From NCBI GenBank assembly GCA_964016885.1, contig OZ024750.1:47120001-47184000 (forward strand): a stretch of DNA of 64,000 nucleotides, written 5' to 3'. Numbering within the stretch: the first letter of the stretch is position 1; each line of letters starts with the position of its first letter. Made by a program: the position numbers and the translations under genes. Of this stretch, positions 45,107 through 54,225 are shown in pieces. The DNA comes from Eledone cirrhosa. Lineage: Eukaryota. The notes below the pieces were generated by a model. It made no database searches, was not told the origin of the DNA, and worked only from the letters and a program-made list of their open reading frames with translations.

Positions 45107-45303
45107 GTAGATAAATCTACCAAGAGTTTAAGGTAGTGTCCAATCCGTATGAAGAACTCAATGTATTCCGGATATCATGGAAAGAAGAGATGTAATGAAA
45201 AATCACTTTCGGTGAAAGATAAACGGTATACAGAGTCAAGATAAAATATTAAACAAATAATGAATAAACAATGAAAACAGTTCCTTATATTAAACAAAAA
45301 AAG

Positions 45304-45457
45304 TTCATTATTTAACGATCGTTTCTAGGATATATATGTGTTAGAATTGGCATGCATATTCAACAGATCTATGTACAAAATTATACAAAATTATACAAAC
45401 TATCAAGATTAAATATACATACCAACACATATATACGCCGTCTTCAGAAATAATGAA
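45304..45457 (-). ncRNA. Hammerhead ribozyme (family C)
   Basis: Reverse complement of 54010-54163. Confidence 0.72.
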
Positions 45458-48400
45458 ATATATTTATTGATAATAACAACAATTCAAAATTTCAGGTCCG
45501 TTTGGGAACAAAATTGACCAATGAAAATACAAAAGGTTTAATGCAGTTCGGTGTGTGTATATACATGTAACTACCCTTACACATATTTTACAAAAATGTA
45601 TGCACAACTTGTATACGCATACGAAAAGGATGGATGCAAATACAAAATTTCAAGGTTAATGTCTCTGTAAGTTTATAATGCACAGATAAGATGCGTATAG
45701 ACACATAAATATGAAATAAGTGTATATACATATTTTCATACTCACTCATATCCGTACAATCACACATACACACGCGTATATGCATAAACATACACATAAA
45801 CTACGAACATACAAACACACACACACCCCCACTCACATATATATATGTGGATATAAAATCCTAAGCACATGGATATTAATTCACTCACATAAACATTGGC
45901 ACACACATTTAGATCAAGATACAGAAATTAGGTGGGAGGGGGGGAGAGGTCAGTATTCAACTGTTTGGGCAGACTGCTTAATATAGATGTATCTATAAAC
46001 TAAGAAAATAAAAAATAATAAATAATAAATAAACATTAAAAAGGAAAGAAAAGAAAAAGAAAAAGAAAAAGAAAAAAGAAAAAAGAAATATATCAAGAAA
46101 ATATATATATATATATATATATATACATATATATATATATATATATATATATACATACACGTACATACACACATATATATACACATACACACATACAAAC
46201 ACATACATACATATACACACATCCACACTTAGAACATACATACACACACATATATAAACATATACATATACACACATACATACATATACACACATACATA
46301 CAAATACACACATATATATACACATATATATATATATGTATATATATATATATATATATATATATACATATACTCATACATACACATATAATCACACATA
46401 CTATATAGACACACATATATATACACACATACACGCACATATACATACACTTACATACATATATACATACAGAAATACACATACATACCTATATATACAC
46501 ACAAATACATACAGACATACATACATACATACAGACAAATACTTAGGCATCTATATATCGGTATATACATACAAACACCACTACACTCTCACACAACTCA
46601 GACATACAAAGAAAAAGGTATATACCTATACACATATACATATACAAATAGAGAAACATATACATATATATATATATATACACATATATATATATATATA
46701 TATATATATATATATACATATACATACATATACACATATACACACATACACATACATACACATACATACATGTACACACACATAGATATATATACACATA
46801 CACACATACACACATACATATTTAGTCATACACACACATACACCTACACGAACATACACATACACATATATAAAGATATATATACACACACACACACACA
46901 CATACACACACACACATATATATAAAAAATGAAGATATATATATATATATATATATACACATACATATACATACACACATACATAGACATATATGTACAT
47001 ACATACACATACATAGATACATACACACACATACATTCATATATATATACACACATAGACATATACTTACATACACACACAACATACATACACACATATA
47101 TACTCATACATAGAATTAGATATATAATCATACATACATACGCACTTACATATACTCATATATACAAATACATACGCATCCATATATGCGTATATACATA
47201 GAAACACCACTACACCCTCACCCAACTCAGACATACAAAGAAAAAGGCATATACATATACATATATACACGCATTAATAGAGATATATATACACATATAT
47301 ATATATATATATATACACACATACACTTATATATATATACTCACACCCACATACAACCAAAAATACACATACAAACACCCACATATACATATATATACAC
47401 ATATATATATATACACACACATAAAAAACAGACATGCACATATATATTTTTTTACACACATATATACACATATATATATATACATATACACACCCTCACA
47501 TATACACACATACACATAAGTTATATTATAATAATAAATAATATATATATATAACACATACATATATACATATATATATATATATATATATATATATATA
47601 TATATATACACATACGAATATAGACATACATACGCACATAGATACATATATATATATACATATACACATACATATACACACACACATATACACACTCACA
47701 TATACATGTGTGTGCACACACACATATATACACATACACACGTATACACATAAACACATATATGTGTATACATGCGCACACACACATATATCCACATAGA
47801 TACGAAGATAGACATATAAATAGAGAGACATACATATATATACACACACACACATATACATACATACATACACACATATATATATATACATATATATATA
47901 TATATATATATATATATATATATATATATATATATATATATATATACACATACACATATATATACACACATGCATATATACACATATACACATACATACA
48001 CACACATATATATACACACACAATCTTACATTCTTATTTGCATGCGCATATATGTATTTTTATATTCAGATATAAATACCCAAACATATATACACCTACC
48101 TACATATATATTCATACATACACGCCTACAAACACAGATGGTAATAGTATGGGGGAAAGGGGGGGGGTTGGAGAAGGGGATTATAGTAAATATATGTTTC
48201 AAGAAACATAGAATATTATCCGTATCAGGATCCAATGTATATTTTTTTACATAGTTTCAGTGTTAGGAAATACAATAAACAAGAAATAAGGCAAAATTTA
48301 TGCATTTCAAAATAAATAAGTATACCATTAAATTATATGTTAACTAAACTAAAGATAGTTAACATATTGATTTCTAAGGTGTAAATTAGTTAGGTTTATA

Positions 48401-48635
48401 ATATTTGAAGCAGAATTTTGAAGTTAAATATTAGTAGAGTATTAATTATAGTATAACTAAATTAAAGTTAATAACGTTATGGTATCAATATTAGGAAATG
48501 AATTTAGTAATAGGGAAAAAACAAATAAAGTATTACATCGGTAGTAGAATATAAATTATAGGTTAACTAAATTAAAAATTATATATTTATTTCTATAGTA
48601 TATGTTAATTAGGTATATAGTAAATAAAACAGATA

Positions 48636-53000: not shown

Positions 53001-54009
53001 TATATGTGTATGTATGAGTATATGTATATATATATATATATATATATATATATACATATATATATATATGTGTATATATATGTGTGTATTTGTATGTATG
53101 TGTGTATATGTATGTATGTGTGTATATGTATATGTTTATATATGTGTGTGTATGTATGTTCTAAGTGTGGACGTGTGTATATGTATGTATGTGTTTGTAT
53201 GTGTGCATGTGTATATATATGTGTGTATGTACGTGTATGTATATATATATATATATATATATATATATGTATATATATATATATATATATATATGTATAT
53301 ATATATATATATATATATATGTATATATATATATATATATATATATATATATATATATATATATATATATATTTTCTTGATATATTTCTTTTTTCTTTTT
53401 TCTTTTTCTTTTTCTTTTCTTTCCTTTTTAATGTTTATTTATTATTTATTATTTTTTATTTTCTTAGTTTATAGATACATCTATATTAAGCAGTCTGCCC
53501 AAACAGTTGAATACTGACCTCTCCCCCCCTCCCACCTAATTTCTGTATCTTGATCTAAATGTGTGTGCCAATGTTTATGTGAGTGAATTAATATCCATGT
53601 GCTTAGGATTTTATATCCACATATATATATGTGAGTGGGGGTGTGTGTGTGTTTGTATGTTCGTAGTTTATGTGTATGTTTATGCATATACGCGTGTGTA
53701 TGTGTGATTGTACGGATATGAGTGAGTATGAAAATATGTATATACACTTATTTCATATTTATGTGTCTATACGCATCTTATCTGTGCATTATAAACTTAC
53801 AGAGACATTAACCTTGAAATTTTGTATTTGCATCCATCCTTTTCGTATGCGTATACAAGTTGTGCATACATTTTTGTAAAATATGTGTAAGGGTAGTTAC
53901 ATGTATATACACACACCGAACTGCATTAAACCTTTTGTATTTTCATTGGTCAATTTTGTTCCCAAACGGACCTGAAATTTTGAATTGTTGTTATTATCAA
54001 TAAATATAT

Positions 54010-54163
54010 TTCATTATTTCTGAAGACGGCGTATATATGTGTTGGTATGTATATTTAATCTTGATAGTTTGTATAATTTTGTATAATTTTGTACATAGAT
54101 CTGTTGAATATGCATGCCAATTCTAACACATATATATCCTAGAAACGATCGTTAAATAATGAA
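54010..54163 (+). ncRNA. Hammerhead ribozyme (family C), ~115-nt stem II
   Basis: 10-bp stem I TTCATTATTT/AAATAATGAA; CTGAAGA; TATATATGTGTT/AACACATATATA; GAAA; palindromic AACGATCGTT; cleavage GUU. Confidence 0.75.
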
Positions 54164-54225
54164 CTTTTTTTGTTTAATATAAGGAACTGTTTTCATTGTT
54201 TATTCATTATTTGTTTAATATTTTA

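What the first reader, a model, noticed from the sequence alone, without database searches (positions are those of the whole stretch)
45107..54225. 9-kb PLE insertion with ~3.5-kb near-perfect inverted arms
Seen: ~45242-48661 is the reverse complement of 50689-54225, differing mainly in microsatellite lengths and a few substitutions. The 2-kb spacer holds an uninterrupted RT-EN frame. The left arm carries a further 135-bp tail (45107-45241) that the ORF-sense arm lacks. Established: PLE insertions often have an inverted pLTR at the 5' junction. Inference: this is an unusually large and recent example and would give a multi-kb dsRNA or cruciform.
Basis: partly seen in the sequence, partly recalled or inferred. 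Interest (0 to 1): 0.72.

Follow-up and report, generated by a model that had tools for sequence, protein, structure and literature searches.

The report
Mirror-armed Hydra-type Penelope retrotransposon insertion
The 9-kb mirror repeat is real: it is a cut-short, predicted-dead copy of a Penelope-type jumping gene whose unusually long, microsatellite-filled end was likely copied onto both sides of one DNA break, a known layout that is large here mainly because this element's end region is long.

Summary
Confirmed: arms 45242-48661 and 50689-54225 match at 3391 positions (9 substitutions, 11 indels), and only the left arm carries the 135-nt tail. The frame is open but is not a whole RT-EN: it starts at 48662, just before LYRDD, and lacks about 340 N-terminal residues, so this copy is non-autonomous. 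Its motifs fit the Hydra clade of Penelope-like elements (PLEs). Each arm ends in a type I hammerhead motif. Both unique ends of the arm are high-copy family sequence, so the arm is an inverted copy of the element's own 4.1-kb 3' region. The same head-to-head layout recurs in at least four other hammerhead-bearing inserts in this window, and this scan noted it many times elsewhere in the genome. The likely mechanism is two cDNAs primed from the two strands of a (TA)n break and joined head to head. What differs from described Hydra elements is size: a 3.9-kb ORF-to-ribozyme spacer, a 135-nt tail and a 115-nt stem II. A cruciform is unlikely (2027-bp spacer). dsRNA is untested, and no read bridging the inner junction was seen.

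The parts
44414..45106 (.). (TA)n-rich left target array
   Evidence: TRF; sequence
45107..45241 (-). 135-nt tail, present on the inverted arm only
   Evidence: the same tail ends at the same base in the sister copy at 25864
45156..45236 (-). stem-bulge-stem hairpin starting 6 nt past the short-arm end, with an enlarged 65-nt inner part; accounts for the long tail
   Evidence: present in the unconstrained MFE fold; lead from earlier notes e1-9533619 and e1-8837782
45242..48661 (-). left arm: inverted, 5'-truncated copy of the element's 3' region
45304..45457 (-). type I hammerhead motif in the inverted arm
48662..50090 (+). 5'-truncated Hydra-type ORF: RT motif C (LYRDD) to thumb, linker, CxCx5C, GIY-YIG-type endonuclease; no stops, no start
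   Evidence: an X4 contig continues upstream at 48662
49068..49376 (+). 103-aa Asn/Thr/Lys-rich in-frame linker (inter-motif distance 119 aa, against at most 30 in 85 of 120 homologs)
   Evidence: covered by X4 contigs with few differences
50091..50688 (+). unduplicated start of the 3' region
   Evidence: family depth
50689..54225 (+). right (ORF-sense) arm: the rest of the 3' region, ending 62 nt after the hammerhead, without tail
51339..53372 (+). ~2-kb compound (TA/CA/TG/ATAC) microsatellite core, mirrored letter by letter in the left arm (about 46101-48022)
54010..54163 (+). type I hammerhead motif: 10-bp stem I, CUGAAGA and GAAA cores, 115-nt extended stem II, palindromic 6-nt stem/loop III, predicted GUU cleavage triplet
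54226..55233 (.). (TA)n-rich right target array
25329..25864 (.). sister mini-copy of the same family: 195-bp perfect arms with a 2-nt spacer, hammerhead in both arms, tail on the right arm

Best explanation
This is one young insertion of a Hydra-type Penelope-like retrotransposon into a (TA)n array, made of a 5'-truncated, predicted-dead sense copy (48662-54225) and a head-to-head inverted copy of its 3' end (45107-48661), likely formed when both strands of the target were nicked and each primed a cDNA. Shown: the anatomy, the truncation, the hammerhead motifs, the one-sided tail, and the family nature of both unique ends of the arm. Inferred: the right flank's bottom strand primed a 5.56-kb cDNA from the inner start site (no tail), and the left flank's top strand primed a 3.55-kb cDNA from the outer start site, 135 nt further 3' (tail). 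Both stopped early and were joined end to end with little or no microhomology. Both came from one RNA or one source locus, because the arms share alleles that the family majority lacks. The arms are 3.4 kb long because this element carries a 3.9-kb microsatellite-rich spacer between ORF and ribozyme; no special mechanism is needed.
For: Arms and tail. Truncation at 48662: median 344 residues precede LYRDD in 38 RWK-bearing homologs; a 255-nt X4 loose end begins exactly at 48662; its 30 shown letters keep the frame open, read by hand. Hammerhead descriptor: 11 hits in the window against 0-1 in 30 shuffles, with outward-facing pairs at 25.5k, 36.5k, 45/54k and 57/59k. Family depth in X1 is similar over the inner arm (5k-56k), the ORF (16k-107k) and 45503-45780 (8k-34k), and about tenfold higher over hammerhead and tail (171k-851k) (summed depth is not copy number, and the two calls used 88 and 85% likeness). 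Both arms agree at 48141, 48227, 48620, 45746, 45861 and 45896, where all X1 depth shows the other base; 48431 is private to the left arm. The sister copy has the same tail end and a short-arm end within 4-9 nt. Each arm holds sequence the other lacks (tail against ORF), which two primings explain directly. In vitro, an anole PLE protein nicks and extends both strands and starts at two sites that bracket the tail (PMC11167929). The layout is described for PLEs (PMC8557442).
Against: No listed contig or read bridges 48661/48662 (only 24 of about 2465 pieces were shown). The in vitro work is on a Poseidon element, not Hydra, and found no strand difference in start site. The sister copy's 2-nt-spacer palindrome fits self-priming just as well. 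No tree with non-Hydra outgroups was possible. Pfam does not recognise the ORF.
Confidence: 0.66

Rival explanations
1. Same element, but the mirror arm arose by self-priming or fold-back of one nascent strand (Arkhipova et al. 2013), with the tail then trimmed from one end by the endonuclease (the resolution idea in Craig et al. 2021).
For: Alleles shared by both arms fit one strand copying itself. Near-perfect palindromes with 1-4-nt spacers at 25.5k, 39.9k, 55.3k and 13.0k. PMC3846280 (passages) argues for self-priming.
Against: Here neither arm contains the other, so an extra trimming or template switch is needed. No microhomology is visible at 48661/48662 against the upstream variants shown (the source allele is unknown, so 0-2 nt is possible). 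The spacer is 2 kb.
Confidence: 0.22
2. Two independent insertions of the same family into one (TA)n array, or a later inverted duplication or gene conversion that homogenised the arms.
For: The family is abundant and targets (TA)n; conversion between inverted repeats is an established process (recalled).
Against: No (TA)n lies at the inner junction, which is exactly the 5' truncation point. Arms are 99.7% alike while most family contigs are 90-99% alike (619 of 2223 X1 records at 99+). The layout recurs in unrelated families.
Confidence: 0.05
3. Assembly or library fold-back chimera.
For: No bridging record was listed. Microsatellite length differences could be read noise. PMC8557442 notes that such structures trouble assemblies.
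Against: The unique flanks are not mirrored (best local match 15 nt to the 200-bp unique island on the right; the 72-nt match further out is a dispersed repeat). The tail is one-sided and ends where the sister copy's does. The arms differ by 9 substitutions, with the family allele on one side at 48431. The junction coincides with a biological 5' truncation.
Confidence: 0.05
4. A foldback-type DNA transposon with long terminal inverted repeats that captured a PLE fragment.
For: Long inverted repeats with internal simple repeats resemble foldback elements (recalled).
Against: The arms are contiguous with the ORF's 3' region in other copies (loose ends at 48661 in X1 and X6), end in a PLE-type hammerhead, and are asymmetric at the termini. 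No transposase was found among 65 window frames.
Confidence: 0.02

Closest known systems
Hydra clade of C-terminal EN+ Penelope-like elements (Craig et al. 2021, PMC8557442; sections 6 and 11, passages, supplement part 2 of 59 and two supplement searches seen)
   Same: RT followed by a GIY-YIG-type EN; LYRDD; CxCx5C linker; CxxC..E..N..CxH; no CCHH; hammerhead near the 3' end (U at the cleavage site in 9 of 26 listed rows); (TA)n target. Penelope-13_HM has a 966-nt inverted 5'-truncated copy at its 5' end.
   Different: The 27 listed families are 1080-3045 bp; this truncated unit is already 5.7 kb with tail. The ORF-to-hammerhead spacer is 3920 nt. Stem II spans 115 nt, against loops of 3-10 nt on short stems. 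The tail is 135 nt against the 30-40 nt given for PLEs. The inverted copy is 3.55 kb.
Adineta vaga Penelope families (Arkhipova et al. 2013, PMC3846280; passages seen)
   Same: Inverted pLTR with a one-sided tail; Pen1 has a 0.9-1.5-kb spacer before the 3' pLTR; Asn-rich in-frame inserts between RT and EN.
   Different: There the spacers differ between copies (captured host DNA), whereas both ends of this spacer are shared by many copies. The spacer here is longer and 42% low-complexity by my mask; the insert is shorter (103 aa, 19% Asn).
PAc, Poseidon of Anolis carolinensis (Frangieh et al. 2024, PMC11167929; parts 1-2 of 4 read)
   Same: Two insertion end points separated by a tail; both-strand priming would give this anatomy.
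   Different: Different clade, tail of 30-40 nt, start sites inside the ORF's first ~120 nt. The 135-nt tail here shows no Hydra ORF start by eye.
PLE hammerheads and animal non-LTR retrozymes (PMC4209133, passages; bioRxiv 10.64898/2026.07.22.740005, passages)
   Same: Type I core with short palindromic helix III; dual motifs on opposite strands 100-700 bp apart were reported; short non-coding derivatives outnumber coding copies.
   Different: Much longer helix II; the two motifs here lie 8.5 kb apart on opposite strands, so they cannot form the tandem dimer on one transcript.

Membership tests
EN+ Penelope-like element | Single ORF with RT and GIY-YIG endonuclease | tested here: met
   166 homologs at E<=0.001, best 9e-76; alignment over RT-C, thumb and EN. 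Pfam and PDB gave no hit, so the domain names rest on motifs and on the paper's Hydra sequences.
EN+ Penelope-like element | Inverted 5'-truncated copy at the 5' junction with a one-sided tail | tested here: met
   the tail is 135 nt, not 30-40
EN+ Penelope-like element | Direct pLTR or partial tandem | tested here: not met
   This copy is truncated inside the ORF and has no upstream direct repeat; not required in truncated copies
Hydra clade | C-terminal EN (not N-terminal as in Naiad/Chlamys) | tested here: met
Hydra clade | CxCx5C linker | tested here: met
   C348, C350, C356; the same block in the Hydra rows of the supplement alignment
Hydra clade | CxxC and CxH around conserved E and N; CCHH absent | tested here: met
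   Pattern present in the window ORF and in 101 of 120 homologs; no CxxC inside the GIY-YIG core (by eye)
Hydra clade | RWK and DKT motifs, divergent RT4 | not testable with these tools
   They lie in the missing 5' part. Present in homologs (39 and 54 of 120, many partial) and in the sister-lineage neighbour at 19.3-21.7k
Hydra clade | Hammerhead near the 3' end | tested here: met
   Descriptor hit and fold. Rfam gave 0 hits at gathering score, and stem II is non-canonically long. Cleavage activity not tested.
Hydra clade | Insertion into (TA)n | tested here: met
Hydra clade | Generally short (<3 kb); descriptive rather than defining | tested here: not met
   5.56 kb sense copy although truncated, against 1080-3045 bp in 27 listed families
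Hydra clade | Phylogenetic placement against other PLE clades | tested here: inconclusive
   Tree of 50 rows without outgroups. Homolog P0006 (E 2.5e-71) closely resembles Hydra-1_Amil by eye.
Autonomous element | Complete RT with start codon | tested here: not met
   About 340 residues missing

The most novel reading that the evidence does not exclude
This family is a microsatellite amplifier. Its transcript carries about 2 kb of compound simple repeats, each two-ended insertion lays that block down twice inside an existing (TA)n array, and the result is both new target DNA for further Hydra insertions and a multi-kilobase perfect hairpin for A-to-I editing or small-RNA silencing wherever transcription reads through. 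Its lengthened tail hairpin also shows that the two copying start sites are set by RNA structure, not by distance.
Probability: 0.3. Interest if true: 0.55.

Novelty: new variant of a known kind. Interest (0 to 1): 0.3.

Why it matters
As a locus it is a dead copy with a described layout. It is useful in two ways. First, each arm holds sequence the other lacks, which separates two-strand priming from simple fold-back better than short palindromic stubs can, and how PLE inverted ends form is still open. Second, it shows that a Hydra-type unit can exceed twice the described size and can carry and double kilobases of microsatellite, which, if family-wide, bears on why some invertebrate genomes are so rich in simple repeats.

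Tried and rejected
An unmasked self-BLAST timed out. No whole genome is held, so there was no copy census and no empty-site test. Pfam found nothing for the ORF and nothing relevant for the 13-row alignment; PDB gave 0; Rfam gave 0 over the window. No RNA holder was listed. A Pfam scan of 65 of 68 candidate frames found only an RT and a GIY-YIG piece at 60.5-62.0k and no host gene; short exons would be missed, so an intronic position is neither shown nor excluded. The loose end at 45341 in X1, X19 and X20 first looked like a fold-back junction in stem II; by eye it continues in the same orientation as a divergent subfamily, so I rejected it as junction evidence. The opposite-strand joints could not be interpreted. 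The nine arm substitutions show no one-way A-to-G pattern (too few to test). The window's 190-bp dispersed repeat has no match in the 3' region. The tree has no outgroup and its bootstrap had not settled (47 of the first 60 homologs had both anchor motifs). Earlier-note look-ups by place (near) and by sequence were empty. The hairpin pattern was drawn from four tails I had already seen, so its count (10 against a shuffle mean of 1.07, maximum 5 in 100) is partly circular, and 2 of the 10 hits have no (TA)n downstream. I saw no paper on multi-kb inverted Hydra arms in searches; subscription journals, 58 of 59 supplement parts of PMC8557442 and bioRxiv supplements were not read and may bear on this.

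Full report
Observation. A masked self-BLAST and exact extension confirm the inverted repeat: left arm 45242-48661 (3420 bp), right arm 50689-54225 (3537 bp), spacer 2027 bp. The arms match at 3391 positions with 9 substitutions and 11 indels, all indels in simple repeats or homopolymers. By the list, none of the substitutions lies in 45242-46000, two lie in 48026-48661, and seven in the microsatellite core. The left arm continues for 135 nt (45107-45241) before (TA)n begins; the right arm runs straight into (TA)n. Both flanks are (TA)-rich arrays, so no target duplication can be read.

The ORF. The frame 48624-50090 has no stop, but its first 13 codons belong to the inverted arm. A protein search gave 166 homologs (best E 9e-76, 35-42% identity among the top rows). 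Aligned with 12 homologs of about 700 aa, the window protein starts just before LYRDD; in 38 homologs with an N-terminal RWK motif a median of 344 residues precede that motif. A contig of run X4 has a 255-nt loose end beginning exactly at 48662, and its 30 shown letters keep the frame open when read by hand. The copy is therefore 5'-truncated and cannot make an active RT (inference from the missing motifs). It has the Hydra diagnostics of Craig et al. (PMC8557442 section 11): C-terminal EN, CxCx5C, CxxC..E..N..CxH and no CCHH. Homolog P0006 resembles Hydra-1_Amil of the supplement by eye. A 103-aa Asn/Thr/Lys-rich linker (49068-49376) makes the inter-motif distance 119 aa, against at most 30 in the 85 of 120 homologs with both anchors; Asn-rich inserts have a precedent in rotifer Penelopes (PMC3846280). 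Pfam and PDB do not recognise the ORF or the alignment.

What the arms are. A type I hammerhead descriptor gave 11 hits in the window against 0-1 in each of 30 shuffles, including 54010-54163 (+) and 45457-45304 (-), with a 10-bp stem I, 115 nt between the core halves and a palindromic stem III. The terminal 354 nt fold with z = -4.4. Rfam missed the motif. The predicted cleavage triplet ends in U, as in 9 of 26 Hydra rows of the supplement; activity was not tested, and PLE hammerheads cleave poorly as monomers (PMC4209133). Laid contigs and reads show a high-copy family: 2223 records of X1 on 48050-50540, at summed depth of 5k-56k over the inner arm and 16k-107k over the ORF, 8k-34k over 45503-45780, and 171k-851k over hammerhead and tail. 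Depth is not copy number, and the two calls used different likeness cut-offs. The pattern still says that both unique ends of the arm travel with the ORF and that short terminal stubs outnumber long copies about tenfold. In X1 and X6, contigs continue past 48661 into the unduplicated 3' region. The family also occurs in runs labelled organisms B and C. It was on the template of this insertion, because both arms repeat its interruptions letter by letter, but its presence in other copies is untested. The 3' region is 42% low-complexity by my mask, against 23% for the window.

Context. The layout is routine here. A sister copy at 25329-25864 (4 substitutions and 2 indels against the big element's end) has 195-bp arms, a hammerhead in each, a tail ending at the same base, and a short-arm end within 4-9 nt of 45242. 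Of ten inverted repeats examined, arms were about 50-280 bp in eight, 1.0 kb at 56.7-59.5k, and 1.4-1.7 kb in an old one at 7.1-16.5k; six showed a clear one-sided extension of about 30-145 nt before (TA)n. Three other Hydra-like ORF remnants lie at 13.5-15.2k, 19.3-21.7k and 58.2-58.5k. The 20k one is sister to this ORF (100/98) and has a 3' region of only about 0.57 kb, so the 3.9-kb spacer is probably a derived gain. The 27 Hydra families in the supplement are 1080-3045 bp, one with a 966-nt inverted copy. Earlier notes of this scan describe head-to-head Hydra stubs many times in this genome (AI notes, unchecked; they call the host an octopus, which I did not test).

The tail. Following a lead from notes e1-9533619 and e1-8837782, I looked for a stem-bulge-stem hairpin. 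It starts at 45236, six bases past the short-arm end, is part of the tail's unconstrained MFE fold, and ends 49 nt before the tail end. In other inserts of the window the same motif has inner parts of 3-34 nt, and 8 of 10 three-pair hits lie 43-69 nt before (TA)n; here the inner part is 65 nt. The long tail is thus mostly a longer hairpin. This fits start sites set by structure, but the pattern was chosen after seeing four tails, and the second hairpin that those notes describe would lie outside the insertion and was not testable.

Mechanism. Read 5' to 3', the top strand from 45107 to 48661 and the bottom strand from 54225 to 48662 are both antisense to the element's RNA, and each starts at a (TA)n flank. 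That is what two target-primed cDNAs would leave (sequence shown; process inferred). The anole PAc protein nicks and extends both strands, is predicted to dimerise, and starts at two sites that bracket the tail (PMC11167929). The arms share alleles absent from all X1 depth at six sites (48141, 48227, 48620, 45746, 45861, 45896), so both came from one template lineage; 48431 changed later or by copying error on the left. Self-priming (PMC3846280) explains the shared alleles and the short palindromes, but here neither arm contains the other, so it needs an extra step. I put dual priming at 0.66 and self-priming at 0.22; the identification as a Hydra-type PLE insertion holds under both.

Artefact and consequences. 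No listed record bridges the inner junction (few pieces are shown and the runs may be other individuals), so the assembly is not proven. Unmirrored unique flanks, the one-sided tail, the arm-specific allele and the recurrence of the layout make a chimera unlikely (0.05). Arm divergence of 0.26% and an open frame indicate a young insertion; I give no date, because the rate, copying errors and conversion are unknown. A cruciform is unlikely across a 2-kb spacer (recalled knowledge). A 3.4-kb RNA hairpin would form only on a transcript covering both arms; no host gene was detected in 65 frames, and expression was not tested.

Verdict. Real and well explained: a known PLE insertion layout in a known clade. 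It is a size variant, with a 3.9-kb microsatellite-rich spacer, a long stem II and a long tail that I did not find described in searches. Interest 0.3.

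Noticed in passing
window 18765-21984 (-): Near-full-length decayed Hydra-like element (RWK and DKT motifs, several stops and frameshifts) between 212-bp direct repeats at 99% identity; sister lineage of the main ORF with a short 3' region.
   Followed up: partly
window 56673-59495: Another Hydra-like two-armed insertion: about 1.0-kb arms (11 substitutions), an endonuclease remnant in the spacer, and both arms carrying hammerhead, hairpin and the full end, so no tail asymmetry.
   Followed up: partly
window 7066-16511: Old inverted pair (arms 1.4-1.7 kb, about 83% alike) around a Hydra-like ORF remnant at 13.5-15.2k, with nested inserts in the 6.3-kb spacer.
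   Followed up: partly
window 12927-13034, 35061-35468, 35812-36069, 36384-36775, 39702-40090, 55236-55344: Small palindromic stubs beside (TA)n, most with a one-sided 30-90-nt extension; three carry hammerhead descriptor hits (35.9k, 36.5k, 55.3k).
   Followed up: partly
window 60472-62036 (+): RT and GIY-YIG Pfam hits (E about 1e-4) right after a (TA)n array: probably a PLE of another clade.
   Followed up: no
window 570-750, 4680-5040, 5870-6060, 8410-8605, 12380-12600, 29037-29220, 29625-29820 and others: A ~190-bp dispersed repeat at 75-96% identity in more than ten copies, SINE-like in size.
   Followed up: no
window 48578/50092 (run X6) and 48579/50056 (run X1): Contig joints that, in element orientation, link the ORF end directly to about 50771, suggesting family variants lacking about 0.7 kb of the 3' region, which holds degenerate 110-145-bp repeats.
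   Followed up: no
window 36067-36195: A 129-bp palindrome between two hammerhead-bearing stubs, with a partial copy at 35558-35606.
   Followed up: no
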